From an uncultured Chloroflexia bacterium (GTDB taxonomy: Bacteria; Chloroflexota; Limnocylindria; Limnocylindrales; CSP1-4), in contig CAVVJT010000003.1 in NCBI GenBank assembly GCA_963748625.1, positions 128,001 to 192,000 of the forward strand: DNA of 64,000 nt, in the 5' to 3' direction. Shown here piece after piece: positions 52,188 to 64,000 of the stretch (positions are counted from its first letter, which is position 1; each line of letters opens with the position of its first letter). Below the pieces are notes generated by a model, which saw only the letters and a list, made by a program, of their open reading frames with translations, had not been told where the DNA came from and did no database searches. The position numbers were made by a program, and so were the translations under genes.

Positions 52188-54443
52188 CTACCGGATCACG
52201 GTGAACGCGTCGATGTCGACGCGCGGACGATTTGCGGTGCCGAGGCACGTGATCTTCACCGTGTGCCTTGCTGACGTCGTCCACGACTTCGAGAACACGA
52301 TCCGCCGGTTCTGCGTGGAGCCGGCCCGCAGGTCGATGATGACGGGTGTGGCACCGTCGACAGAGACCGACGCCTTGCCGAGGCCGGTCCCCCGCATCGC
52401 GACCCAGGCGACAGCCCGTCCCGTGAATGCGAACGTGGCCGAAGCGCCTCGCGCGGTCGTGGCCCTGTACGACCCTCCGGATGCTCCCGTGGCACGGACG
52501 GTCTTCCAGGTCCCGCGCCAGGCGACCGCCGGGCTCGACTGCTGGCTCAGGAGCACACGGAACGTCGATCCGGGTCTGTCCGTGGAGGAGTTGGCCGCGT
52601 AGTCGGTCGCGCGGGACCGGAACCGGTACGTCCTCGTCGAGGATGCGGTGAGCGCTCGAATGACGGACGGTGTCACCGGGGACGACACGGTGACCCAGCT
52701 GCCACCGTTCGTCTGCTGCTGCAGCCGGTTCGCCTTGACGTTCGAGCCTGCGTCCGTGGCAGACCAGCGGACCTCGACGGGCACGGACGTCCGCCCCAGA
52801 ATTCCGCCAAGGTGGATCGAGACGCCTGGTGGGCCCACCGAAGGCAGCGTCTGGTCGGAGATCGGGATCAGTGCCGCGTCTTCCCAGTCTGCCGTGTAGC
52901 CGGCGCCGGACCAGTAGCCCGAGCGATACGGGGAGCCGAGCGGCGGGTCGATGGACAGCTTGTAGGAACCGCTGACAAGGCCGGATACGGTGAAGTTCCC
53001 GTTCGCATCCGTCTCGACGCCCCCGGGCCCAAACTCCCAGATCCCGCCAGACGACAGACCCGCGAAGACGCCGATCCCAGCGAGCGGCACGCCGCCGGGA
53101 CCCGTGACCCTGCCACTGATCGTGTTGCCGAGCGGGAGCACGATCGCGACCCCGCCGACGCTCGTGGTACCGACCTTCACCGGGATCGTGGCGTACGGGT
53201 CGGGGTTCGAGCGGCCGGCGGCATAGCCAATGACGACGTGATGCGCGGCGCCTGCCTGGATCTCGTACGACCCGGGGGGCACGTTGCGGACGGTCCACGT
53301 GCCGTCCGCACCCGTCACGGCACGAGCGCACCCGAGGTCCGGATCGCACGCGTTGAGCATCGCGTTGGCGACGGGCCCCGCAACGTCGCGAACCGTGCCG
53401 GACAGCGTCGGCAGCACGGGCAGGGCTGCTTGAAGCCCACTCACGTCACCCGCGGTGGTGTCGATCGCCACCCCCTCCGTGGACTGATCGACGAGGACCT
53501 CTCCGGGGCCGTTGTAGTTCCCGTACGGGAAGTTGCCGCCGAGGCTCTCCGGGACGGTGAACTGGAGGTGGTAGGAGCCCGGATACAGGCCCCTGACCTT
53601 GAACTCGCCGTCGGCATCGACCGGGAACAGGACGCTGGTCGAGGCATCGAGCGCCCGCACCTCGACCAGCTTGCCGGTCGCTCCTACGAGGGTGCCGCTG
53701 ATCGACCGGCCACGGGACAGCGTGATGTCCTGGTCCGTCAGGTCGGCCGCGACGACCTCATATCCCGTCGGCACGACCTCGCTGTCCTCCGCCACGACGA
53801 TGCCGTCAACCACGACGCCGCTCGGGAAGTCGCTGCCGTCGGGTCCGTAGACGCGCAGCGTGTAGGTGCCAGGCGTGAGGCCGACGACCTGGTAGTGGCC
53901 GTCGACGTTCGACGCGACCGACGAGCCGCTGACGGGCCCGTCCGCCGAGACCCACGCGCCCGGGACAGGGTCGCCCTCGGGGCTCTTCACGAGACCGGTG
54001 ATCCGAAGGCCATCGGCCAGGTGGATCTCGCGCCCGGCGACGTTCGCCGCGACGACGATCGAGACTGCGTCCGCCGGGTCCTGCGACCCGCCGGGCATGC
54101 CGATGTCCCACGCGCCGAACAGGTTGGTGCCCTCCGGGGCGAGCGCCTGGAGCAGATAGCTGCCATCAGGGACCGGCTGGATCGTGAACGTCCCGTCTGC
54201 TTCCGACACCCCATCGCCCCCGTCGAAGCAGTTGTCGACGGAGGAGCACAACCCCACCGAGGCGCCGGCGACCGGATTGCCGTGCGTGTCCATCACGATC
54301 CCGGAGACGGACAGGCCAACGGGGAGCTGCACGTTCTTGCCGGTCGCGCTCGCCGCGACGGCAACGGGGGGCGCTACCAGCGCCGCGGCCACCACGATGG
54401 CGACGGCTATCGAGAACATCGCCCGGATCGAGCCCCTCACCAC
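52188..54443 (-). CDS. Secreted protein with carboxypeptidase-regulatory-like (transthyretin-like) repeats and conserved basic C-terminal module
   Basis: Signal peptide, repeated ISGxV...PxxGAxV...DGxFxxxGLxPGxY, then an FN3-like plus jelly-roll C-terminus. Confidence 0.82.
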   Translation of the reverse strand: MVRGSIRAMFSIAVAIVVAAALVAPPVAVAASATGKNVQLPVGLSVSGIVMDTHGNPVAGASVGLCSSVDNCFDGGDGVSEADGTFTIQPVPDGSYLLQALAPEGTNLFGAWDIGMPGGSQDPADAVSIVVAANVAGREIHLADGLRITGLVKSPEGDPVPGAWVSADGPVSGSSVASNVDGHYQVVGLTPGTYTLRVYGPDGSDFPSGVVVDGIVVAEDSEVVPTGYEVVAADLTDQDITLSRGRSISGTLVGATGKLVEVRALDASTSVLFPVDADGEFKVRGLYPGSYHLQFTVPESLGGNFPYGNYNGPGEVLVDQSTEGVAIDTTAGDVSGLQAALPVLPTLSGTVRDVAGPVANAMLNACDPDLGCARAVTGADGTWTVRNVPPGSYEIQAGAAHHVVIGYAAGRSNPDPYATIPVKVGTTSVGGVAIVLPLGNTISGRVTGPGGVPLAGIGVFAGLSSGGIWEFGPGGVETDANGNFTVSGLVSGSYKLSIDPPLGSPYRSGYWSGAGYTADWEDAALIPISDQTLPSVGPPGVSIHLGGILGRTSVPVEVRWSATDAGSNVKANRLQQQTNGGSWVTVSSPVTPSVIRALTASSTRTYRFRSRATDYAANSSTDRPGSTFRVLLSQQSSPAVAWRGTWKTVRATGASGGSYRATTARGASATFAFTGRAVAWVAMRGTGLGKASVSVDGATPVIIDLRAGSTQNRRIVFSKSWTTSARHTVKITCLGTANRPRVDIDAFTVIR

Positions 54444-54560
54444 GTCCCTCCCTCGTCCCGACCGAATCCGGTCCCGGGCCACGGTAGCCCGAGGACCAGC
54501 GTCGAGTGAAGGCCAGCCGGCCCGTGTGCGAACGCCGAAGCGACCTGAGCCGCCTGAATC

Positions 54561-54609: not shown

Positions 54610-57195
54610 TTACTTGGCGAGGTGCCGCTGCATCGCAGCCTTGCGGCTGAGGTTCACGCGGCCCTGGCGGTCGATCTCGGTGACCACCACCATGACCTCG
54701 TCGCCGACGGACACGACGTCCTCGACGCTGGGCACGTGGTAGTCGGCGAGCTCGCCGATCCGGATGAGGCCTTCCTTGCCGGGCAGGATCTCCACGAAGC
54801 AGCCGAAGTTCATCAGCCGGGTGACCTTGCCGAGGTACAGGGAGCCGACCTCGACCTCACGGGTGAGGCTCTCGATCCACTGGATCGCCTTGCGCGAGTT
54901 CTCGCCGGAGACGGCCGCGATCTCGACGGTGCCGTCATCCTCGACGTTGATCTCGGTCTGGGTCTCCTCCTGGATCTTGCGGATCATCGACCCACCCTTG
55001 CCGATGATCTCGCGGATCTTCTCGGGGTTGATCTTGATCGTGATGATGCGCGGCGCGAAGTCGCTCATCGTCTCGCGGGCGGACGGCAGGACCTCGGTCA
55101 TCTTGTCGAGGATGTGCAGGCGGGCCGCAAGGGCCTGCTTGAGCCCCTCGCGGATGACCCGCTCGTCGATCCCCTTGACCTTGATGTCCATCTGCAGGGC
55201 GGTGATGCCCTCGGACGTCCCGGTCACCTTGAAGTCCATGTCGCCGATCGAGTCCTCCTTGCCGAGGATGTCGGTCAGCACCACGAAGTTGCCGGTGTCG
55301 CCATCGAGCACGAGGCCCATCGCAGCGCCGGCGACCGGCGCCTTGATCGGCACGCCCGCGTCCATGAGGGCGAGGGTCGAGCCGCAGGTCGACGCCATGG
55401 ACGTGGAGCCGTTGCCGGCCACGACCTCGGAGACGAGGCGGATGACGTACGGGAACTCCTCCTGCGACGGCAGGACGGGCAGGAGCGCGCGGGCGGCCAG
55501 GTTGCCGTGGCCGATGTCGCGCCGGCTCGGGCCGCGCATGGGCTTGTTCTCGCCCGTGCTGTACGGCGGGAAGTTGTAGTGGTGCAGGTACCGCTTCTCG
55601 GTCTCAGGGCTGATCGTGTCGATCCGCTGCACGTCCGAGGACGCACCGAGGGTGGCGACGGTCAGGGCCTGGGTCTGGCCGCGGGTGAACAGGCCCGAGC
55701 CGTGCGCGCGCGGCAGAAGGCCAACCTCGACCGAGATCGGGCGGACCTCGTCGGTGGCGCGGCCGTCCATGCGGAGGCCCTCGGTCAGCACGAGCTGGCG
55801 GACGGTCTTCTTCTGGACGAGGTTGAACAGGCTCTTGGAGACGCGCGCCTCGCGGCGGGCGGCCTCCAGCTTCGTCGCGGACGCGGCGGCGTCGCCCTTG
55901 ACGGCGCGGATCGCGTCGGCGATACCGGCCTTGAGGGTCTCGATCCGGCCCGGGAGGTCCTTGCCGAACCAGATGAGCAGGTTCGCGGTGGCCTCGGCGT
56001 CCGGCAGCGCGCGGTGGCTCTCCTTCAGCTCGACACCGAAGAAGTTGGCCAGGGTCGCCAGCTTGTAGTTCTCGAGGTCCGGGTAGCCCTCACGTGCGAT
56101 CACGAGCGTGTCAAGGTACGCGCCCTGCTCCACGCGGGTGCCGTCGGCGAGCGCCTCCTGGAGGAAGGCGATGTCGAAGCCGACCGAGTGGCCGACCATC
56201 GGCGCGCTGCCCACGAAGTCGAGCGCCTTGCGGGCAGCCTCGGCCGGGGCCATGGCGCCCTTGACGTCCTTGTCCGTGATGCCGTGCATCTGGTTGCCGA
56301 CGATCGGGCGTCCGGGGTTCACGAAGGTGGACCAGCGGTCGGTGATCTTGCCACCCTTGACGCGGACCGCGGCAACCTCGACGAGGTCGGCCATCTTCGG
56401 GTCCGTGCCGGTGGTCTCGACATCCACGACGACGAACTCGCCGCCCGCCTTCGCCAGTGCGGCGAACGTGAGCACGGAGTCGGTGTTGGGCTCGATGTAC
56501 GGCACGCGCTTGGGCTTGCCCACGAGCTCCCGGAGCTTCTCCTGGATCTCGATGAGCGGCACGAGCGCGCGGTGCCCGAAGAGGATGGCCTCGGCCATGA
56601 CGTCCTCGGGGAGGATCTTGACGCCCGCCTCGACCATCATGATGGCGTCGCGGGTGCCCGAGACGACAAGGTCGAGCTCGCTGTCCGCGAGCTGGGGGTA
56701 CGTCGGGTTGAGGACGAACTCGCCATCGATGCGGCCGACGCGCACGGCGCCGACGGGCCCCTGGAACGGGATCTCGCTGATGGTGAGGGCGGCGGATGCG
56801 GCGATGGTGCCGAGGATGTCCGGGTCGTTCTCGTGGTCCGTCGAGAGGACCGTGATCACGAGCTGGATATCGTCCTTGTAGCCCTCGGGGAAGAGCGGGC
56901 GGATCGGGCGGTCCGTGAGGCGCGCGGCGAGCGTCGCGGCCTCGGACATGCGACCCTCGCGCTTGATGAAGCCGCCGGGGATCTTGCCCGCGGCGTACAT
57001 CCGCTCTTCGAACTCGACCGTCAGCGGGAAGAAGTCGAGGCCGGGGCGGGGCTCGGACCGGTTCGCGGTACCGAGGACCATCGAGTCGCCGTAGCGCAGG
57101 GTGACGGCGCCGCCCGCGAGGCCGGCGAGCTTGCCGGTCTCGAGCGTGAGGGTGCGACCGCCGAACTCGATCTCGAGAGTGGTGGGAGTGGGCAC
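54610..57195 (-). CDS. pnp: Polyribonucleotide nucleotidyltransferase with inserted DEDDh exonuclease domain (861 aa)
   Basis: DFFPLTV, GGFIKREG, RLTDRPIRPLF, RMDGR, HGSGLFTRGQTQ, HHYNFPPYS and EDSIGDMDFK motifs, plus KH and S1 domains. Follows rpsO. Confidence 0.97.
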   Translation of the reverse strand: MPTPTTLEIEFGGRTLTLETGKLAGLAGGAVTLRYGDSMVLGTANRSEPRPGLDFFPLTVEFEERMYAAGKIPGGFIKREGRMSEAATLAARLTDRPIRPLFPEGYKDDIQLVITVLSTDHENDPDILGTIAASAALTISEIPFQGPVGAVRVGRIDGEFVLNPTYPQLADSELDLVVSGTRDAIMMVEAGVKILPEDVMAEAILFGHRALVPLIEIQEKLRELVGKPKRVPYIEPNTDSVLTFAALAKAGGEFVVVDVETTGTDPKMADLVEVAAVRVKGGKITDRWSTFVNPGRPIVGNQMHGITDKDVKGAMAPAEAARKALDFVGSAPMVGHSVGFDIAFLQEALADGTRVEQGAYLDTLVIAREGYPDLENYKLATLANFFGVELKESHRALPDAEATANLLIWFGKDLPGRIETLKAGIADAIRAVKGDAAASATKLEAARREARVSKSLFNLVQKKTVRQLVLTEGLRMDGRATDEVRPISVEVGLLPRAHGSGLFTRGQTQALTVATLGASSDVQRIDTISPETEKRYLHHYNFPPYSTGENKPMRGPSRRDIGHGNLAARALLPVLPSQEEFPYVIRLVSEVVAGNGSTSMASTCGSTLALMDAGVPIKAPVAGAAMGLVLDGDTGNFVVLTDILGKEDSIGDMDFKVTGTSEGITALQMDIKVKGIDERVIREGLKQALAARLHILDKMTEVLPSARETMSDFAPRIITIKINPEKIREIIGKGGSMIRKIQEETQTEINVEDDGTVEIAAVSGENSRKAIQWIESLTREVEVGSLYLGKVTRLMNFGCFVEILPGKEGLIRIGELADYHVPSVEDVVSVGDEVMVVVTEIDRQGRVNLSRKAAMQRHLAK

Positions 57196-57283
57196 GAGCA
57201 AACGACCTCCTTGGTCGTGGATGGAGGGAGCGACCTCAGGCGGGTTGGCCTGGGCTCGCCGGGAAAGCAGGGCCGGATGCGAA

Positions 57284-57308
57284 CGACCCCGGGACGCTCC
57301 CGGGGTCG
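57284..57308 (-). terminator. Stem-loop between rpsO and pnp (terminator or processing site)
   Basis: CGACCCCGGGA-CGC-TCCCGGGGTCG, an 11-bp perfect stem. Confidence 0.6.
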
Positions 57309-57323
57309 CGATGCGGCAAGTGC

Positions 57324-57593
57324 TTAGCGGCGCAGTCCGAGCGAGCCGATGACGGCCCGGTAGCGCGCAGGGTCCTTCTTCACGAGATACGCGAGAAGGC
57401 GACGGCGCTGGCCCACGAGCTTGAGGAGGCCGCGGCGCGAATGATTGTCCTTCGGGAAGCGTCGGAGGTGTTCGGTCAGGTCCCGGATACGCTCCGTCAG
57501 GAGGGCGATCTGGACCTCGGGCGAACCGGTGTCGCCGTCCTTGACAGCGTACTCCGCGATGACCTCTTGCTTCTTCTCCCGCGCGAGCGGCAC
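57324..57593 (-). CDS. rpsO: 30S ribosomal protein S15
   Basis: [21 protein letters not shown]...[23 protein letters not shown]. Confidence 0.98.
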
Positions 57594-57709
57594 TCGATCC
57601 TCCGACACGAACGATGGCGTGACTACACAATTTGTTCTTCGACCGGGGCAGGATAGCAGGGCATCCACATTTCGCCAAACGGGGCGGCTCCCCGGCAGCC
57701 GCCACCCGA

Positions 57710-58717
57710 TCAGGCGACAGTCCGGCCCGCGGCTTCGAACAGACGCTCCAGGACCCGCATGTTGGCGATGGCATCGGCCATGGGTACAGGCGTGGGGTCA
57801 CCGTCGAGGACCGCCGCTGAGAAGGCGTCCACCTCGCATGCATACGGGTCGGCCGGCGCGAGCTCGATCACATCGGTCTGCCAGTCCTCAGGCGCGTTTC
57901 TGCCAGTCGTGACACGGATGCGGGTGGGGATCGTGGGCGGGATGTTGAACGGGATGTCGATCGCAATCCGGCCCGTCGAGCCGTAGATGTGGACGCGCTG
58001 GTCCGGCTCCACCCGCGTCGAGCAGGTGAACGATGCCACGCCGCCTGCGAAGCGCATCGTGCCTGAGGTCAGGACGTCCACGTCTGAGGCCGGGTCGACC
58101 ACCATCACCGCGGCCACCTCAAGCGGCTCAGCACCGAACAGGAGTCGCGAGAGGTTGACGTTGTAGCAGCCGATGTCGTAGAGCGCGCCGCCCCCCATGG
58201 AGCGGACGCTGCGGATGTCCAACGGATCGTCGAGGAAGTAGCTGAACCAGCTGTCGACCGCACGCAGCTCGCCGATGGCCCCGTCCGCCACCAGCTTGCA
58301 GGCCGCCTGCCACGAGGGATGGTGGCGGTACATGAAGGCTTCCATAAGCACCCGCCCGGTGGCCTCCGCCTCAGCCGCCATGCGCTCGGCCTCCGCCACG
58401 TTCAGGCCGACCGGCTTCTCGCATAGCACGTGCTTGCCGGCCCGGAGCGCCGCGATCGTCCACTCCGCGTGCAGATTGTTCGGGAGCGGGTTGTAGATGG
58501 CGTCCACGTCCGGATCAGCCAGGAGCTGCTCGTACGACCCATAGGCCTTCGGGATGCCGAGCTCGCCGGCCACGCGCTCCGCCGTGGCGGCATGGCGTGA
58601 TGCGATGGCCACGACCTCGGCCCGCCCGGCCCGGTGCATGCCCGGAATGACCTTCCCGGTCGCGATCCGCGCGGTCGAGAGCACGCCCCAGCGGAGAGTT
58701 TCCACGCGTTCCTCCAT
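57710..58717 (-). CDS. Gfo/Idh/MocA oxidoreductase
   Basis: [29 protein letters not shown] and [11 protein letters not shown] motifs. Confidence 0.93.
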
Positions 58718-58796
58718 CGTCCGTCCTGCCAGGGTCCCGATGATGCGGCCTGCCGCCGGATCGCGCTCGGTGGAGCACGGGGACGGTGTGTCGCGG

Positions 58797-59570
58797 CTAG
58801 GCGCCGAAACGGACCCGAACGCGGGATCCCGCCGGGACGGGTGGCACCACGAGCCGCCCTCCATCAACGAGCACGTCGACGCGATGCTCGCGCGTCCCGG
58901 TGTCGAGTGCCGCGGGCCACCGTCCGTCCGGTGGCAGCATCACCGGCAGCGGGAACGCCACGACCGTGTCCTCTCCCTCATCCTCGTCCCGACTGGCCAC
59001 CCCGACCACGGTGTGCGGCCGGCCCAGGAGCTCAGCAGCCGTGTCCAGGTCGCCCGCGCCGATGGCCGTGCGGACCTCCGTGCTGCGTACCGAGCGTCCG
59101 TCCAACGTGAACGGCGGCACCACCACCACGTCGAACCCCTGCTCGATCCCGAGCGCCGCGAGCGCCTCGGGCGTGCCCTCGCGCCGGTAGCCGAAGGCGG
59201 CGTCGGGGGTCATCAGGAAGCCGGCCACGGGCGCACGGTCGGCGATGGCCGCCAACGAAGTCCCGGTAGGTGGTCTCGCGCAGCCGCTGGTCGAAGTGGA
59301 CCACCACGGTCGCGGCAACCCCTTCCGATCGGAGACGCTCCAGGCGCTCATGTGGGTCGCACAGGAGCGGCGGCGCCTGGCCCGTGATCACCTCGTCGGG
59401 GTGGTGGTCGAACGTGACCACGACCGGGCGGGCGGCCCGCCTGCCGGCCTCGGCAACAAGATGCTCCAGCAGGTACGCGTGCCCGCGGTGGAGACCGTCG
59501 AACACCCCGACGACCACGAACACGGGTGACTCGCTGCGGGGAGGTCGGCAAGGCCGCGTGCGACGTCCAC
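58797..59570 (-). CDS. ribF: RibF-like FAD synthetase; intact FMN adenylyltransferase domain, degenerate kinase domain (frameshifts near 59530 and 59255)
   Basis: GVFDGLHRGH, VTFDHHP, FGYRREG and STEVRTAI..GD...A.ELLGRP motifs. Located after truB. Confidence 0.8.
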
Positions 59571-59573
59571 GGA

Positions 59574-60674
59574 CTAGGCCTCCCCGTCCCCCGCCGGAGA
59601 CGGCGCGGGGATCGGCTCGGCGACCGTTGGCGCCGGCAGGTCCGATGTCATGGGCTCCGCCGGCAGATCCGATGTCACGGGCTCCGCCGGCAGGTCGCCC
59701 GTTGGTGCCGGCGCGGCGGCGATCGGTCTCCCGCCCTCCGACGGCCGATCGACGAGAACCTTCTGCGGGTGGAGCAGCCCGCCCACCGCCCTGCAGACCG
59801 CAGCCACCTTGCCGTCCGGCGTCATCGCCAGCACCAAGGGTGCGTCGCGGATCTCCATCGGCGTCTTGGGGCCGGTCACAAGGCCCTCCCACATGCGGCG
59901 GACCTCGTCCCAGGTGATCCGGGCGTGCGGCAGATCCTCCAGGCCGGCATCCATGGGGCGCAGGGCCAGCTCGATGCCGGCAGGCCCGTCGGCAGCGTGC
60001 TCGCGCAGCTCGTCGAACGAGACGGCGTCGTCGGCTGTGAAGTGACCGGACGCCGTGCGCACGAGGGCGCCGAGATAGGCGCCGCTATCCAGGCCCTTCC
60101 CGAGGTCACGCGCCAGCGCCCGGATGTACGTCCCGGCGGAGCACCGCACGTCCACGACGGCGATTGGCCTGGCCGGGTCCGCGTCGTCCCACTCGAGCAG
60201 CGCCGCCTCCAGGATGACGACCTCGCGCGGCGCCAGAACAACCTCCTCGCCGCGACGGGCCATCTGGTAGGCACGCCGGCCTTCGACCTGTACGGCGCTG
60301 TACTGGGGAGGCACCTGCAGCTGGGGCCCGACCGATTCGCGAAGCGCCGCCTCGAGGGCCGCGCGGGTGACCAGCGGGCCGTCAACCGTCACGCGTTCGC
60401 CGTCGATGTCGTCAGTGGTGGACGTCTCACCGAAGCACAGCGTCGCCCGGTAGCGCTTGGGCATGCCCAGGTGGTACTCGGCGAGGCGGGTCGCCTTGCC
60501 CAGGAAGATCGGCAGCACGCCCGCGGCGAATGGATCGAGCGTTCCGCCGTGACCCACGCGGCGCGTGGACGAGAGCCTGCGCACGAGACCTACCACGTCG
60601 TGGGAGGTGGGACCGGACGGCTTGGCGACCACGAGGACCCCGTCGAGGCCACCGCTCCGGTCCCGCGGGCTCAC
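59574..60674 (-). CDS. truB: tRNA pseudouridine(55) synthase
   Basis: KPSGPTSHDVV, VGHGGTLDPFAAGVL, PPQYSAV and CSAGTYIRALARD motifs. Confidence 0.96.
   Translation of the reverse strand: MSPRDRSGGLDGVLVVAKPSGPTSHDVVGLVRRLSSTRRVGHGGTLDPFAAGVLPIFLGKATRLAEYHLGMPKRYRATLCFGETSTTDDIDGERVTVDGPLVTRAALEAALRESVGPQLQVPPQYSAVQVEGRRAYQMARRGEEVVLAPREVVILEAALLEWDDADPARPIAVVDVRCSAGTYIRALARDLGKGLDSGAYLGALVRTASGHFTADDAVSFDELREHAADGPAGIELALRPMDAGLEDLPHARITWDEVRRMWEGLVTGPKTPMEIRDAPLVLAMTPDGKVAAVCRAVGGLLHPQKVLVDRPSEGGRPIAAAPAPTGDLPAEPVTSDLPAEPMTSDLPAPTVAEPIPAPSPAGDGEA
59631..59697 (-). repeat. 27-bp repeat x2.5 in the truB C-terminal tail (DLPAEP(V/M)TS)
   Basis: GCCGGCAG(G/A)TCCGATGTCA(T/C)GGGCTCC repeated. 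Confidence 0.75.
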
Positions 60675-61705
60675 CGCCGGACCTCGCCTGCCAGGCGCTG
60701 CGCCACGTCGAGCACGACCGGGATCGCCGCCTCGAGCGGCAGCGGGACCGACGCCCCGGCCGCGCGCGCATGGCCGCCGCCACCGAAGACGCCCGTCAGG
60801 ACCGTGGCATCGACGCCGCCAGGCTTCGTCCGCACCGACAGGCGGGTGGCGCCGTCGGCATAGCCCTTGAACAGCATCGCGACCTCGGCGGCCTCCGCCT
60901 GCGCCAGCAGGTCGATGATCCCCTCGGAGTGGGCGCCGATGGCGCCGGTCGCGACCAGGTCCGCCTCGGTGAGGGTGGACCAGATGACCAGGTGGTCCTC
61001 GCTCGCGACGAGCCGGTCCAGCACCCGCCCGAAGAGGCGCAGCTGGGCGTCGGGCTTCGTGCGGTACAGGCGGCGCGAGATGTCGGACAGCGGGGCGCCG
61101 GCCTCGACGAGCGCCGCCGCCACGGCGAGCGTGCGTGGCGTGGTGTTCGGATGGGCGAAGGTGGCGGTGTCCATGACGACGCCGGCCATCAGCGCGTTCG
61201 CGAGGACGCCATCGTGCAGTCCGAGGGGCAGCCCGAGCCGGACCGCAAGCAGCGCGACCAGCTCGCAGGTTGCCGCGGCGTCGGGATCGATCCAGTCGAG
61301 GTCGCTGCCATCGTTGTTGGACGCGTGGTGGTCGATGATGACCCGCGGCAGCTTCGCGAACAGCTCCGCGTTCCGCTGGGCCACGTCGCCCACCCGGTCG
61401 GCGGTCGCACAGTCGCACAGGACCAGCAGGTCGTAGGCTTCGGCTGGATCGGGATCGCGGCGGAAGCGCTCGACACCGGCGATGAAGCCGTAGAGCGGCG
61501 GCACGGGGTCCGTCGAGATGGCGGTGGCCCGGCCACCCAGCGCCTCGACGAGATGGCAGATGCCCAGGACCGCGCCGAGGGTGTCGGCATCGGGATTCTC
61601 ATGGCTGACCGCGAGCACGTGGCGGGCACCGCGGATCCGCTCCAGCACGGGCGCCGGGACGGTCTGCATCGCGAGCCCGCTGATGTCCACGTGCTGGGGC
61701 CTCAA
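60671..61705 (-). CDS. nrnA: DHH/DHHA1 nanoRNase/pAp phosphatase
   Basis: HENPDAD, IDHH, SVR and GGGHARAAG motifs, between rbfA and truB. Confidence 0.9.
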   Translation of the reverse strand: MRPQHVDISGLAMQTVPAPVLERIRGARHVLAVSHENPDADTLGAVLGICHLVEALGGRATAISTDPVPPLYGFIAGVERFRRDPDPAEAYDLLVLCDCATADRVGDVAQRNAELFAKLPRVIIDHHASNNDGSDLDWIDPDAAATCELVALLAVRLGLPLGLHDGVLANALMAGVVMDTATFAHPNTTPRTLAVAAALVEAGAPLSDISRRLYRTKPDAQLRLFGRVLDRLVASEDHLVIWSTLTEADLVATGAIGAHSEGIIDLLAQAEAAEVAMLFKGYADGATRLSVRTKPGGVDATVLTGVFGGGGHARAAGASVPLPLEAAIPVVLDVAQRLAGEVRR

Positions 61706-62292
61706 CGCTTGCCTCCCTTGCCCTGCGGCGGGTGCGAGGCCTTCGGGTGCTTCTGGCCGCTCGGCCGGTCGACGCCCTTGGGTCCTCCGGAGCGGCGGCG
61801 CACCGGCTTTGTGCCGGGCGGCGGGAGGCGCTCCGCCGCCGCTGCACCGAACTCGTCTCCCGGGTCCTCGGATCCGGGCGCCGCGTCGTGGTGGAGCCGC
61901 TTCACCGGGGTGGGCAGGGACTCGTCGAACGGCTCGATCTCAAGCGGTTCCACGCCGGACTCCAGCTCCTGGAGCAGGTGCAGGACACGTGTGCCACGCT
62001 CGGCGGAGTCGTCGAGCCGCACGTGGAGAGCCGGGATTCGCCGGATGCGCAGCCGCTTGCCCAGCTCGCGCCGGATGAACGGCATGGCGTCGGCGAGCGC
62101 GCGCAACGTCTCGTCGCGATCGCCCTTGCCGCCGATGACGCTGACCCACACCTTGGCGTGGCCCAGGTCCGGGCTGGTCTCCACGTCCGTGATGGTCGCG
62201 AACCCGATCCTCGGATCCGAGACCTCTTTCGTGAGGAGCGCGCCGATCTCCTGCCGGAGCAGCTCGTCGACGCGCTCGGTGCGCTGGCTCAT
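61702..62292 (-). CDS. rbfA: Ribosome-binding factor A with C-terminal extension
   Basis: RTERVDELLRQEI, DPRIGFATITDVETSPDL and LRIRRIPALH..LDDS motifs. Confidence 0.95.
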   Translation of the reverse strand: MSQRTERVDELLRQEIGALLTKEVSDPRIGFATITDVETSPDLGHAKVWVSVIGGKGDRDETLRALADAMPFIRRELGKRLRIRRIPALHVRLDDSAERGTRVLHLLQELESGVEPLEIEPFDESLPTPVKRLHHDAAPGSEDPGDEFGAAAAERLPPPGTKPVRRRSGGPKGVDRPSGQKHPKASHPPQGKGGKR

Positions 62293-62317
62293 CGCTTGGT
62301 CTCCCCGACCGGGGCCG

Positions 62318-64000
62318 TCAGCCGGTGATGCGGCTCTTGGCCTGGTGCGTGAAGCACTCGATGATGTCGCCCTCCACCTGGTCGTTCCAGCCCTCGAGGC
62401 CGATACCGCACTCGTAGTTCTGGGCGACCTCGCGGACGTCGTCACGGAACCGGCGGAGCGACTCGATCCGCTGGTCGTTGGCCACGATCCTGCCACCACG
62501 CCACACCCGGGCGAACCCGTTGCGCACGATGCGGCCGTCGGTGACGAAGCAGCCGGCGATGACGGTGACCTTGCCCACCTTGAAGAGCTGGCGCACCTCG
62601 GCGCGGCCCTCGATGACCTCCACGATCTCCGGCTCGAGCATGCCCTTGAGGGCGGCGTCGATGTCGTCGGTGAGCTTGTAGATGATGTCGTAGAGGCGGA
62701 CATCCACACCGTCCGCCTCGGCCGCCCGGCGGGCGGTCTCGGTGATACCGGTGCTGAAGCCCACGACGATGGCATTCGACGCGGTCGCGAGCATGATGTC
62801 GTTGTCGGTGATGTCCCCCGCGGCCTCGTGGAGGATGTTGATCTTCACCTCGTCCGTGGACAGCTGCTGCAGCGCATGGTCGATCGCGCCCAGCGAGCCC
62901 GACACGTCGGACTTGAGGATGATCCGCAGCTCCTTGGCCTGGCCGGCCTGGATCTGGCGGTAGAGGTCCTCCAGGGTCGCGCGCCCGGAACCCGCGCCGG
63001 CCGCCTGGGCCGCCGCGATCTTCTTGGCCTCGACCTGGTCACGGGCCACCATCACGTCCTTGACGACGCGCAGGATGTCGCCGGCCTCGGGGACGTCTGA
63101 CAGGCCGAGGATCACGGCCGCGGACGCGGGGCCCGCCTTCGTGATGCGCTTGCCCGTGGAGCTCTCGAGGGCCTTGATCTTGCCGTAGCTGGTGCCGGCG
63201 ACCACGACGTCGCCCACGCGCAGGGTGCCCGTCTGGACGATGATCGTGGCGACGGCGCCGCGACCCTTGTCCAGGCGCGCCTCGATGACCGTGCCCACGG
63301 CATCGCGCTTGGGGTTCGCCTTGAGCTCCTGGAGGTCGGCGACCAGCAGGATGATCTCGAGCAACTCGGGGATGCCCACGCGGGTCTTGGCCGACACCGG
63401 CACGAGCGGCGTGTCGCCGCCGTAGTCCTCGACCACGACGCCGGCCTCGGCCAGCTCGTTCTTGACCCGGTCCGTGTTGGCATCCGGCTTGTCGATCTTG
63501 TTCATCGCGATGACGAGCGGGACCTTCGCCGCCTTCGCGTGGCTGATCGCCTCGAGCGTCTGGGGCATGACGCCGTCGTCCGCCGCGACCACGATCACCG
63601 CGATGTCCGTGACCTTGGCGCCTCGGGCGCGCATCGAGGTGAACGCCTCGTGGCCCGGGGTGTCGAGGAAGACGACGCGCTTGCCGTCCTTCGTGGTCAC
63701 CTCGGACGCGCCGATGTGCTGGGTGATGCCACCACGCTCGCCCGCCGCGACGGTGGTCGAGCGGATGGCGTCAAGCAGGCTCGTCTTGCCGTGGTCCACG
63801 TGGCCCATGACGGTGACGATCGGGGCCCGCGGGAGGAGGTCCTTGGGATCGTCCGCCTCCTCGTCCCAGAGCTGCACCTTGGCAGCCTCCGCGGCGGGGG
63901 CGCTGTCCTCGTCCTCGTCCTCGTCGACGGCGCCCTCCTCGGCGATCTCGTAGCCGAGCTCCTCGGCGACGAGCGACGCGGTGTCGCGATCGATCAGCTG
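62318..64000 (-). CDS. infB: Translation initiation factor IF-2 (5' end beyond window)
   Basis: [34 protein letters not shown] and [12 protein letters not shown]...ECGI motifs. Confidence 0.98.

What the first reader, a model, noticed from the sequence alone, without database searches (positions are those of the whole stretch)
55975..56440. PNPase with a complete DEDDh (DnaQ/Pol III epsilon-like) exonuclease inserted in frame
Seen: pnp sits in its canonical rpsO-pnp position but is 861 aa. After the first RNase PH domain (...ELVGKPKRVPYIEP) comes a ~155-aa insert with ExoI (FVVVDVETTG), ExoII (VGHSVGFD) and ExoIII (SHRALPDAEAT), so all four acidic residues and the His are intact. It rejoins a remodelled helical segment and the second PH domain (RMDGR...EDSIGDMDFK), KH and S1 with no frameshift. 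Known: PNPase is normally ~700 aa and a phosphorolytic homotrimer; DEDDh enzymes are hydrolytic 3'-5' nucleases (DnaQ, RNase T, oligoribonuclease); the eukaryotic exosome pairs a PH ring with the DEDD nuclease Rrp6. Inference: a single-chain dual-chemistry, exosome-like enzyme with three hydrolytic sites at the helical-domain face, which could finish short products, trim stable RNAs or process DNA 3' ends. I do not know of this architecture being described.
Basis: partly seen in the sequence, partly recalled or inferred. Interest (0 to 1): 0.88.

Follow-up and report, generated by a model that had tools for sequence, protein, structure and literature searches.

The report
PNPase with built-in DEDDh exonuclease
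The housekeeping RNA-degrading enzyme PNPase of this uncultured Chloroflexota bacterium carries a complete, conserved second nuclease domain of the DinG/PolC proofreading type inside its helical linker, and the relatives that have it lack the DinG exonuclease-helicase that their insert-free sister lineages keep.

Summary
Observation confirmed. pnp (window 54613-57195, minus strand, 861 aa) follows rpsO and scores as RNase_PH x2, RNase_T/DEDDh (residues 255-407, E 2.8e-25), KH and S1. It is not a chimera. Junction-spanning copies occur in 129 of 201 sampled genomes of the class: f1 61/61, f2 7/7, f4 61/66. Families f3 and f5 of the class, and 32 of 32 other Chloroflexota, have insert-free pnp. 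So this is one gain, not a trait of the whole class.

All five DEDDh residues are invariant in 66/66 insert-bearing sequences, and the PNPase core residues checked in 70/70. The insert's dN/dS is 0.14, like PH1. The domain is DinG/PolC-type.

New here: a DinG-type helicase domain was found in 22/22 insert-free genomes but in only 2/69 insert-bearing ones.

Best reading: an active dual-chemistry 3'-5' nuclease in which PNPase now carries the DinG-type exonuclease. Substrate and geometry are untested.

No paper describing it was found in six searches. This scan had flagged the same architecture before on other genomes.

The parts
57324..57590 (-). rpsO (ribosomal protein S15), directly upstream of pnp
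   Evidence: Pfam Ribosomal_S15 E 4.3e-36
57206..57212 (-). Shine-Dalgarno-like AAGGAGG, 10 nt before the GTG start
   Evidence: read from the sequence
54610..57195 (-). pnp coding sequence, 861 codons plus TAA
   Evidence: TIGR03591 942.9 bits
56500..57195 (-). first RNase PH module (residues 1-232)
   Evidence: RNase_PH and RNase_PH_C matches; alignment
56440..56499 (-). linker with one helix (residues 233-252), probably the remnant of helix 1 of the alpha-helical domain
   Evidence: alignment with insert-free relatives; helix 239-249 in the model; dN/dS 0.45
55975..56439 (-). DEDDh 3'-5' exonuclease domain (residues 253-407)
   Evidence: PF00929 E 2.8e-25; model pLDDT 92 and Foldseek hits to DinG, PolC and epsilon
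56416..56424 (-). ExoI codons D258-V-E260
   Evidence: D and E invariant in 66/66
56173..56175 (-). ExoII codon D341
   Evidence: invariant in 66/66
55999..56016 (-). ExoIII codons H394 to D399 (H-x4-D)
   Evidence: H and D invariant in 66/66
55774..55974 (-). remodelled rest of the alpha-helical domain (residues 408-474); the ExoIII helix runs on as one long helix 396-430
   Evidence: PF03726 model 28-80 at residues 427-479; secondary structure of the model
55081..55773 (-). second RNase PH module with the phosphorolytic site (residues 475-705)
   Evidence: RNase_PH 483-616; R558, R559, S597, S599, D648, D654 and K656 invariant in 70/70
54862..55080 (-). KH domain (residues 706-778)
   Evidence: KH_1 718-775, E 3.6e-11
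54613..54861 (-). S1 domain and C-terminus (residues 779-861)
   Evidence: S1 781-852, E 1.1e-17

Best explanation
This is the cell's single housekeeping pnp gene. [quoted passage not shown]

Shown: both catalytic centres are kept, and the insert is under purifying selection.

Inferred: the protein is a homotrimer with three phosphorolytic sites in the ring channel. It also has three hydrolytic, phosphate-independent DEDDh sites on the face opposite S1/KH, beside the side pore that the helical domain lines.

The lineages with the insert have no DinG-type exonuclease-helicase, and their insert-free sisters have one. I therefore propose that PNPase has taken over the job of the DinG exonuclease. 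That job is hydrolytic trimming of 3' ends that phosphorolysis handles badly, such as pre-rRNA tails, RNA in hybrids, or single-stranded DNA. In this reading PNPase's S1/KH domains and ring supply the substrate grip that the helicase domains supplied before.

My odds:
- real conserved fusion: 0.97
- insert catalytically active: about 0.8
- it replaces DinG's exonuclease function: about 0.4
- main substrate is RNA rather than DNA: about 0.55

The confidence figure given for this explanation (0.6) is for the core claim: a real, active two-chemistry 3'-5' nuclease.
For: Architecture and scores.

Conservation:
- 41/41 genomes of the genus and of family f2 have a match. It is in one piece without stops in 18 of 24 other genomes of the genus and in 13 of 16 f2 genomes. 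The rest are cut by contig ends or split into adjacent pieces.
- Junction-spanning matches in 129/201 genomes of the class: f1 61/61, f2 7/7, f4 61/66 plus 3 partial.
- These include one-contig genomes such as G006, G210 and G125.

One origin: insert-bearing PNPase cores form one group (SH-aLRT 99), and so do the inserts (95). Insert-free pnp was found in 4 f3 genomes and 1 f5 genome and in 32/32 other Chloroflexota, so the insert is the derived state.

Selection: D258, E260, D341, H394 and D399 are invariant in 66/66. PNPase core residues are invariant in 70/70. dN/dS is 0.14 for the exonuclease domain, 0.16 for PH1 and 0.09 for PH2, over 45 pairs of the genus.

Fold: full model pLDDT 83.5, pTM 0.77; module model pLDDT 92. 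Best structural matches are S. aureus DinG 8zef (E 6.5e-11) and PolC 9qrn (rmsd 1.9 over 166 columns, 35% identity). By sequence, PolC scores 8e-23 and DinG 1.4e-13.

Complementarity with DinG:
- The only strong RNase_T match in f3 and f5 genomes lies in an RNase_T + DEAD + Helicase_C_2 protein of about 885 aa.
- With that protein as query, full-length matches came from 17 of 21 f3 genomes and from the f5 genome. The other 4 f3 genomes gave it in two pieces or cut at contig ends.
- In 68 of 69 f1/f2/f4 genomes the best match covers only its exonuclease part and lies inside pnp; 1 of the 69 had no match. One f1 genome has an additional helicase-region match and one f4 genome a fragment.
- Helicase_C_2: f3 21/21, f5 1/1, f1 1/31, f2 0/4, f4 1/34.

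Literature:
- Listeria DinG is a 3'-5' exonuclease on RNA and DNA that removes unprocessed rRNA (PMC12774634, abstract and passages).
- B. subtilis DinG degrades ssDNA and the RNA strand of hybrids (PMC12525004, passages).
- The E. coli helical domain lies opposite S1/KH and lines a pore to the active site (PMC2723993, passages).

Reads: contigs of two RNA libraries and two DNA runs cover all 30 bins of the gene. One RNA-library contig (56371-56649, 7 differences) bridges the PH1-insert junction. One DNA contig (55742-55983, 3 differences) reaches from the end of the exonuclease domain into the helices.
Against: - No activity, substrate or trimer geometry was tested. The structure tool returns no coordinates, so I could not see where the DEDDh site points.
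- The DinG pattern may rest on as few as one gain and one loss on one branch, so it has little statistical weight.
- The exonuclease tree does not place the insert with the class's own DinG exonuclease domains. These form a separate group (SH-aLRT 98-99) inside a Chloroflexota DinG clade. Holding the two together costs 14.1 log-likelihood units, which the AU test does not reject (p 0.233).
- By score to this window's insert, the class's DinG domains (55-88 bits) rank below many unrelated DEDDh domains (100-138 bits).
- Two insert-bearing genomes do show a Helicase_C_2 match: G121 in a 2041-aa frame, and G075 as an 85-residue fragment at a contig end.
- Listeria DinG prefers DNA in vitro, and B. 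subtilis DinG does not cut linear ssRNA with Mg2+. So an RNA role for the insert is not implied by its relatives.
- The exonuclease domain evolves faster than the PH modules between families: 43-47% against 66-77% identity.
- RNA-library contigs do not prove transcription.
Confidence: 0.6

Rival explanations
1. DNA-directed role. The insert trims 3' ends of single-stranded DNA (repair, replication stress, R-loop-associated ends), and PNPase serves as a DNA-end-binding scaffold.
For: The closest families and structures are DNA enzymes. These are the PolC proofreading domain, DinG and epsilon. Listeria DinG prefers DNA in vitro. B. subtilis DinG degrades ssDNA and does not cut linear ssRNA with Mg2+. 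From my own recall, not from any call: bacterial PNPases have been implicated in DNA repair.
Against: The host protein is an RNA enzyme in the rpsO-pnp translation-gene cluster. DinG-type exonucleases also act on RNA in vivo. Nothing in the sequence separates RNA use from DNA use.
Confidence: 0.25
2. Built-in nanoRNase. The DEDDh site finishes the 2-5 nt end products that PNPase leaves.
For: Short products would be released close to the helical-domain pore (PMC2723993, passages). DEDDh enzymes include oligoribonuclease. E. coli Orn and human REXO2 do appear in the fold search, at ranks 48 and 50.
Against: An NrnA-like DHH protein is present in all 5 genomes checked, with or without the insert. 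One copy lies in this window (60671-61705), although its NrnA model score of 77.5 bits is far below the cut-off of 350. The insert is closest to the DinG/PolC type, not to Orn. The gene whose presence alternates with the insert is DinG, not a nanoRNase.
Confidence: 0.15
3. The insert is a non-catalytic structural or nucleic-acid-binding module, or a regulatory plug of the side pore.
For: The helical domain influences PNPase activity and is dynamic. The insert is joined rigidly through one long helix, 396-430.
Against: All five catalytic residues are invariant in 66/66 sequences, even where domain identity falls to 43-47%. dN/dS is 0.14.
Confidence: 0.05
4. Assembly chimera, or a recent mobile insertion in this genome only.
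For: The genome is a 10-contig assembly with 7.7% estimated contamination. Another gene in the window, ribF, looks frameshifted.
Against: The same in-frame architecture occurs in 129 sampled genomes of the class, including one-contig genomes. It also occurs in the 120 listed database proteins from several sources. There is no compositional break. Independent contigs bridge both ends of the domain.
Confidence: 0.01

Closest known systems
Canonical bacterial PNPase (TIGR03591; for example E. coli 7ogk/3gcm, C. crescentus 4aim)
   Same: PH1, helical domain, PH2, KH and S1 in the same order. The rpsO-pnp position is the same. The phosphorolytic-site residues are kept. Foldseek to 7ogk_A gives E 1.5e-75 and 40% identity.
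   Different: A 155-aa DEDDh domain plus new helices is nested in the helical domain. The protein is 861 aa, against 736-737 aa in insert-free relatives of the same class.
Firmicute-type DinG (N-terminal DEDD exonuclease + XPD-like helicase; S. aureus 8zef, L. monocytogenes, B. subtilis)
   Same: The exonuclease domain is of the same type. It is the best structural match (8zef, E 6.5e-11), with NCBIfam DinG at E 1.4e-35. Its presence in the class alternates with the insert.
   Different: There are no helicase domains in the protein, and none were found in the genome. The exonuclease domain sits inside PNPase instead of at an N-terminus.
PolC proofreading domain (DEDDh nested in the PHP domain; 9qpc, 2p1j)
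   Same: A DEDDh domain nested inside another enzyme's domain. It is the best sequence match among solved structures (E 8e-23), with rmsd 1.9 over 166 columns.
   Different: The host is a DNA polymerase, not a phosphorolytic RNase. The insert is not placed with the PolC rows in the tree of exonuclease domains.
Non-covalent pairings of a PH ring with a DEDD nuclease: eukaryotic exosome with Rrp6, and the C. crescentus degradosome with PNPase and RNase D
   Same: A phosphorolytic-type ring and a hydrolytic DEDD 3'-5' nuclease work in one assembly (PMC4245959, abstract and discussion passages).
   Different: Those are separate polypeptides. RNase D and Rrp6 being DEDDy enzymes is from recall. Here there is one chain and an H-x4-D (DEDDh) motif. 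The ring is also catalytically active, unlike the eukaryotic exosome core (recalled).
RNase T / oligoribonuclease
   Same: The same DEDDh superfamily and the same polarity (ranks 13-50).
   Different: They are weaker matches than DinG, PolC or epsilon. No oligoribonuclease or RNase T model appears among the listed NCBIfam hits of the insert.

Membership tests
Polynucleotide phosphorylase (TIGR03591) | Whole-protein score over the curated cut-off | tested here: met
   942.9 bits against 525; the match is split into two stretches by the insert
Polynucleotide phosphorylase (TIGR03591) | Two RNase PH modules followed by KH and S1 | tested here: met
   Pfam RNase_PH x2, RNase_PH_C x2, KH_1, S1
Polynucleotide phosphorylase (TIGR03591) | Complete alpha-helical domain between the PH modules | tested here: inconclusive
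   PF03726 matches only model positions 28-80, at exactly its cut-off of 24.6 bits. The first third is interrupted by the insert.
Polynucleotide phosphorylase (TIGR03591) | Phosphorolytic-site residues in PH2 kept | tested here: met
   R558, R559, S597, S599, D648, D654 and K656 are invariant in 70/70 sequences. Which of these are the catalytic residues is assigned from recall and from the human equivalents named in PMC12599292.
Polynucleotide phosphorylase (TIGR03591) | Homotrimeric ring | not testable with these tools
   Three chains exceed the size limit of the complex tool, and the monomer model comes without coordinates.
DEDDh (DnaQ-like) exonuclease, PF00929 | Family score over the cut-off across the full model | tested here: met
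   90.2 bits against 24, model positions 1-164 of 164
DEDDh (DnaQ-like) exonuclease, PF00929 | ExoI D-x-E, ExoII D, ExoIII H-x4-D | tested here: met
   D258, E260, D341, H394 and D399 are present and invariant in 66/66
DEDDh (DnaQ-like) exonuclease, PF00929 | DnaQ-like fold | tested here: met
   Model pLDDT 92. Foldseek hits to DinG, PolC, DnaQ, epsilon and RNase T, all with probability 1.00.
DEDDh (DnaQ-like) exonuclease, PF00929 | Metal-dependent 3'-5' exonuclease activity | not testable with these tools
   Needs an enzyme assay.
DinG exonuclease-helicase (NF005981 / TIGR01407) | XPD-like helicase domains (DEAD, Helicase_C_2) behind the exonuclease domain | tested here: not met
   None in the protein. 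No Helicase_C_2 match in the genome. The score of 122.5 bits is far below the cut-off of 789. It is therefore not a DinG; only its exonuclease domain is DinG-like.
Oligoribonuclease / nanoRNase | Match to an oligoribonuclease or NrnA model | tested here: not met
   No such model appears among the 25 of 29 NCBIfam hits of the insert that were listed.
Rrp6 / RNase D (DEDDy) | ExoIII with Y-x3-D; PF01612; HRDC domain | tested here: not met
   ExoIII reads H-x4-D. There is no PF01612 or HRDC match at E up to 0.01.

The most novel reading that the evidence does not exclude
The PNPase ring has replaced the DinG helicase as the delivery engine for a DinG-type hydrolytic exonuclease. That would make a one-gene, exosome-like machine. 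S1/KH and the channel would grip RNA such as pre-rRNA tails or R-loop RNA. The 3' end would then be handled either by phosphorolysis inside the ring or by hydrolysis at the distal face, for instance when phosphate is scarce, NDPs are high, or structure stalls the ring. It would be a natural case of a nuclease domain changing its motor partner.
Probability: 0.2. Interest if true: 0.85.

Novelty: new variant of a known kind. Interest (0 to 1): 0.66.

Why it matters
PNPase is one of the most studied RNA-decay enzymes, and its five-domain plan is regarded as universal. Here a second, chemically different 3'-5' nuclease is built into the same chain and kept under selection across an abundant, uncultured group of soil and freshwater bacteria.

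It offers a simple bacterial model for a question usually studied in the eukaryotic exosome: how a PH ring and a hydrolytic DEDD nuclease share substrates. It may also bear on what the poorly understood DinG exonuclease is for. Lineages that put this type of domain into PNPase have dispensed with DinG.

RNase R/II is rare in the phylum (12 of 121 genomes). A hydrolytic partner for PNPase may therefore matter more here than in model bacteria.

All of this can be tested with one recombinant protein and two point mutants.

Tried and rejected
- **Chimera or mobile insertion:** rejected.
- **Trait of the whole class:** rejected. Families f3 and f5 have insert-free pnp.
- **Same architecture in other classes of the phylum:** not found. 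In 301 genomes searched with the insert plus its junctions, only class members gave junction-spanning matches among the 150 of 390 matches listed. pnp was insert-free in 32/32 other genomes.
- **Same architecture elsewhere in the world library:** the 150 best of 28,298 hits held PNPase-type proteins only from this family. The non-PNPase hits I scanned were PolC-type, FAN1/VRR_NUC-exonuclease, GIY-YIG multi-exonuclease, HTH or CBS fusions. A less similar, independent insertion would rank lower and would be missed. Atlas clusters that pair RNase_PH with RNase_T are labelled Chloroflexota.
- **Compensation for a missing RNase R/II:** rejected as a specific cause. RNB is missing from insert-free relatives too (0/5) and from 109 of 121 genomes of the phylum.
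- **Compensation for a missing nanoRNase:** not supported.
- **Direct descent of the insert from the class's own DinG exonuclease domain:** neither recovered by the free tree nor rejected (AU p 0.233). The AU test on the full 139-row set did not finish in two runs.
- **Read laying:** only short contigs of relatives at 85% likeness or more. None spans the whole gene, and depth is not interpretable.
- **Earlier notes near this place in the genome:** none.
- **Complex prediction:** not used. Three chains exceed its size limit, and no pairwise binding claim is made.
- **Supplementary files of the papers:** not opened.
Full report
**1. What is there**

The long minus-strand frame 54610-57843 holds pnp. 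An AAGGAGG box at 57212-57206 lies 10 nt before GTG 57195-57193. A TTG two codons upstream has only a 4-nt spacer. From the GTG the product is 861 aa and ends at TAA 54610-54612. Nine relatives of the genus begin at the same place.

rpsO lies directly upstream at 57324-57590 (Ribosomal_S15, E 4.3e-36). Further upstream are a GFO/IDH/MocA oxidoreductase, ribF, an NrnA-like DHH protein, rbfA and infB.

Pfam gives:
- RNase_PH (E 6.5e-50, two stretches)
- RNase_PH_C (2.5e-25, two stretches)
- RNase_T PF00929 (2.8e-25, residues 255-407, the whole model)
- KH_1 (3.6e-11) and S1 (1.1e-17)
- PF03726, the helical-domain family, only over its model positions 28-80 at residues 427-479

NCBIfam TIGR03591 scores 942.9 bits against a cut-off of 525, in two stretches. 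The insert matches DEDD-exonuclease (NF005906, 7.3e-38), PolC (4.1e-36) and DinG (1.4e-35) models.

GC content is even across the junctions.

**2. Anatomy of the insertion**

I aligned 15 insert-bearing and 5 insert-free PNPases of the class. One row, G078, failed through my own trimming.

After the conserved GKPK motif, insert-free proteins go straight into a helical domain of about 85 aa. Insert-bearing proteins have, in order:
- a 20-aa linker with one helix (239-249)
- the DEDDh core
- a long helix (396-430) that continues the ExoIII helix
- two more helices (436-450 and 454-472) before the RxDGR motif of PH2

The domain is therefore nested in the helical domain, not placed between domains. 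The net gain is about 125 aa: 861 against 736-737 aa.

**3. Is it real, and how widely spread?**

The full protein finds a match in 41 of 41 genomes of the genus (f1/g1) and of family f2.
- It is in one piece and without stops in 18 of 24 other genomes of the genus, at 87-94% identity.
- It is in one piece in 13 of 16 genomes of f2, at 69-71% identity.
- The rest are cut by contig ends or split into adjacent pieces.

A search of 5.8 billion proteins with residues 225-440 gave 1778 hits among 8000 scored candidates. All 120 listed carry RNase_T together with RNase_PH. Sources name them Chloroflexi or Candidatus Limnocylindrales. NCBI calls them polyribonucleotide nucleotidyltransferase, and JGI calls them a DNA polymerase III epsilon family exonuclease.

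I then searched 201 genomes of the class with the insert plus both junctions (216 aa). Matches that start at query residue 1-2 and reach residue 207 or beyond came from f1 61/61 (with G000), f2 7/7 and f4 61/66. Three further f4 genomes gave partial matches, and two gave none (92% and 85% complete). The hits in f3 (60/66) and f5 (1/1), as far as they were listed, cover only the exonuclease core (150 of 203 matches listed).

Searching four f3 genomes and one f5 genome with the whole protein showed pnp as residues about 6-246 and about 431-855 in one frame of 737-814 aa. The exonuclease core matched elsewhere, in a frame of 890 aa or more, in the four f3 genomes (for f5). These two families therefore have an ordinary pnp.

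In 301 genomes of the phylum, only class members gave junction-spanning matches among the 150 of 390 matches listed. With an insert-free pnp as query, 32 of 32 genomes of other classes gave a collinear match whose DNA span equals the query span. It was in one piece in 31, and in two adjacent pieces in G347.

In the library of 1.84 billion representatives, the insert alone has 28,298 hits, 45 of them below 1e-30. Among the 150 listed, those scoring 140 bits or more against this insert look like full or partial copies of this same PNPase. P0140 shows RNase_T followed by RNase_PH. The non-PNPase hits I scanned are PolC-type, FAN1/VRR_NUC-exonuclease, GIY-YIG multi-exonuclease, HTH or CBS fusions. 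Atlas clusters that pair RNase_PH with RNase_T are labelled Chloroflexota.

Counts include a few genomes flagged as unpublished. The conclusions do not depend on them.

**4. One origin**

I built a tree of PNPase cores with the linker, insert and helical columns removed. It has 45 rows; two loci were dropped because my frame filter missed them.
- The 12 insert-bearing proteins fall on one side of a branch (SH-aLRT 99), with f1+f2 (100) and f4 (100) inside.
- The four insert-free class members form another group (100), among the other Chloroflexota.

In a tree of 139 exonuclease domains the inserts group together (93). Two short database proteins sit among them. Fifteen of the 154 cut domains were dropped: fragments of this same family, domains covering fewer than 145 query positions, and one small protein. 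In a 44-row subset the inserts are one group (95).

All outgroups are insert-free, so the insert is derived and was gained once.

**5. Selection and catalytic residues**

Alignment A1 has 70 rows: this protein, 20 locus translations, one representative, and 48 of the 120 listed database hits.
- D258, E260, D341, H394 and D399 are invariant in all 66 insert-bearing rows.
- R558, R559, S597, S599, D648, D654, K656 and others of the PNPase core are invariant in all 70 rows.

Between f1 and f4 the exonuclease domain is 43-47% identical, against 66-77% for the PH modules. Among ten genomes of the genus, dN/dS is as follows:

| Region | dN/dS |
|---|---|
| exonuclease domain | 0.14 |
| PH1 | 0.16 |
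| PH2 | 0.09 |
| KH+S1 | 0.15 |
| remodelled helices | 0.36 |
| linker | 0.45 |

**6. Fold**

The full-length model has pLDDT 83.5 and pTM 0.77, with 75-96 across the insert by blocks of ten residues. Its best PDB matches are PNPases (7ogk_A, E 1.5e-75).

A model of residues 225-480 has pLDDT 92. Its best matches are:
- S. aureus DinG (8zef_A, E 6.5e-11, 200 columns)
- PolC (9qrn_A, rmsd 1.9 over 166 columns, 35% identity)
- then DnaQ, epsilon, RNase T, exonuclease X, and Orn/REXO2 at ranks 48-50

By sequence against solved structures, PolC scores 8e-23, Cas2-DEDDh 7.7e-14 and DinG 1.4e-13.

The tool gives no coordinates, so the direction in which the cleft faces could not be examined.

**7. 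The DinG pattern**

I searched five genomes, one per family, for RNase_T.
- In the f3 and f5 genomes the only match lies in a frame of about 890-911 aa.
- In the f4 genome the only match is the pnp insert.
- G000 and the f2 genome also have a small DEDDh protein.

The f3 and f5 proteins are RNase_T + DEAD + Helicase_C_2, which is the exonuclease-DinG architecture.

I used the f3 protein as query on 91 genomes of the class that are at least 90% complete.
- 17 of the 21 f3 genomes and the f5 genome match over its full length. The other 4 f3 genomes match in two pieces or are cut at contig ends.
- 68 of 69 f1/f2/f4 genomes match, and their best match covers only residues of about 1-180 and lies inside pnp. 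One f4 genome gave no match.
- Additional helicase-region matches are a 35%-identical stretch in a 2041-aa frame (G121) and an 82-residue fragment at a contig end (G075).

The Pfam model Helicase_C_2 gives f3 21/21, f5 1/1, f1 1/31, f2 0/4 and f4 1/34.

The pattern is clean, but it may reflect only one gain and one loss on one branch. It is a lead, not a statistical result.

The exonuclease tree does not put the insert next to the class's DinG exonuclease domains. Those sit in a Chloroflexota DinG clade (98-99). The AU test does not reject holding the two together (log-likelihood difference 14.1, p 0.233). The source of the domain therefore stays open.

**8. Other nucleases**

- RNB (RNase R/II) was found in 0 of 5 class genomes and in 12 of 121 genomes of the phylum. 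Its absence is general and does not explain the insert.
- A DHH pair, a RecJ-sized frame plus an NrnA-like frame, is present in all 5 genomes. The NrnA-like gene of this genome is in the window at 60671-61705, but it scores far below the NrnA cut-off. This weakens the nanoRNase reading.

**9. How it probably works**

In E. coli PNPase the helical domain lies on the face opposite S1/KH. It lines a side pore to the active site that may pass phosphate and nucleoside diphosphates (PMC2723993, passages). By homology, three DEDDh domains would crown that distal face (inferred).

DinG-type exonucleases cut 3'-5' on both RNA and DNA. Listeria DinG removes unprocessed rRNA in vivo while preferring DNA in vitro (PMC12774634, abstract and passages). 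B. subtilis DinG degrades ssDNA and the RNA strand of hybrids, but not linear ssRNA with Mg2+ (PMC12525004, passages).

My best reading is an active two-chemistry 3'-5' nuclease in which PNPase carries the DinG-type exonuclease. Both catalytic centres being intact and selected is shown. Activity, substrate, trimer geometry and the take-over of DinG's role are inferred.

**10. Known or new?**

Six full-text searches found no description of this architecture. About 1.7 million PMC articles and most subscription-journal papers are not in the searched library, and supplements were not opened.

The closest described situations are non-covalent:
- RNase D with PNPase on the Caulobacter degradosome (PMC4245959)
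- Rrp6 with the exosome (PMC4245959)

The proteins are already in public databases under automatic names.

This scan flagged the same architecture before in more than a dozen other genomes. Several of those notes say "whole class". My data narrow that to f1, f2 and f4.

**11. Reads**

Twenty-three listed runs hold part of the gene or of a relative's gene, none with half of the sampled words. Seven are RNA libraries.

I laid contigs of two DNA runs and two RNA-library runs at 85% likeness or more. They cover all 30 bins.
- An RNA-library contig (56371-56649, 7 differences) bridges the PH1-insert junction.
- A DNA contig (55742-55983, 3 differences) reaches from the exonuclease end into the helices.

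This is weak support next to the genome comparison, and it does not prove transcription.

**Verdict**

The fusion is real, conserved and single-origin. It is a new variant of PNPase and is probably active. Its function is open, with a testable link to DinG.

Noticed in passing
window 58797-59892 (-): ribF looks split between two frames. FAD_syn model positions 5-98 lie in ORF 59032-59892, and positions 111-157 lie in the overlapping ORF 58797-59351. This is either a frameshift or an assembly indel near 59250-59350. No flavokinase domain was reported.
   Followed up: partly
window 60671-64000 (-): The translation-gene cluster upstream of pnp contains infB (IF-2, 706 bits), rbfA, and an NrnA-like DHH protein (77.5 bits, far below the NrnA cut-off of 350). 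Then come ribF, a GFO/IDH/MocA oxidoreductase at 57710-58867, and rpsO.
   Followed up: partly
phylum sample; five class genomes: The RNB domain of RNase R/II was found in only 12 of 121 Chloroflexota genomes that are at least 90% complete, and in none of the class members sampled. PNPase may therefore be the main processive 3' exoribonuclease in most of the phylum.
   Followed up: partly
L029 1043-3694 (+); L030 847-3513 (-): In the exonuclease-DinG genes of f3 and f5, the first ATG/GTG/TTG of the frame lies 16 and 47 codons inside the RNase_T match. Either an unusual start codon is used, or the domain starts earlier than a standard gene call would give.
   Followed up: no
G121:C10:21127-22632: One insert-bearing f1 genome has a Helicase_C_2 match (E 2.1e-22) inside a 2041-aa open frame. 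It is 35% identical to the DinG helicase part. This is a different, giant helicase-containing protein.
   Followed up: no
G000:C10:258319-258813 (L031 478-1035, -): The genome has a second, small DEDDh protein of 185 aa (RNase_T E 3e-10; best NCBIfam hits are generic 3'-5' exonuclease and epsilon models, all below their cut-offs). The f2 genome has a different one of 181 aa. The f3, f4 and f5 genomes checked have none.
   Followed up: partly
window 52188-54482 (-): Downstream of pnp lies a 764-aa protein with four CarboxypepD_reg repeats (E 7.9e-38). It has a hydrophobic stretch near its N-terminus and is probably a secreted or cell-surface protein.
   Followed up: no
G184:C1:2220219-2220842: In one single-contig f1 genome, the open frame around the insert is only 429 aa, although the insert itself matches in full. 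This is a possible frameshift or break in that genome's pnp.
   Followed up: no
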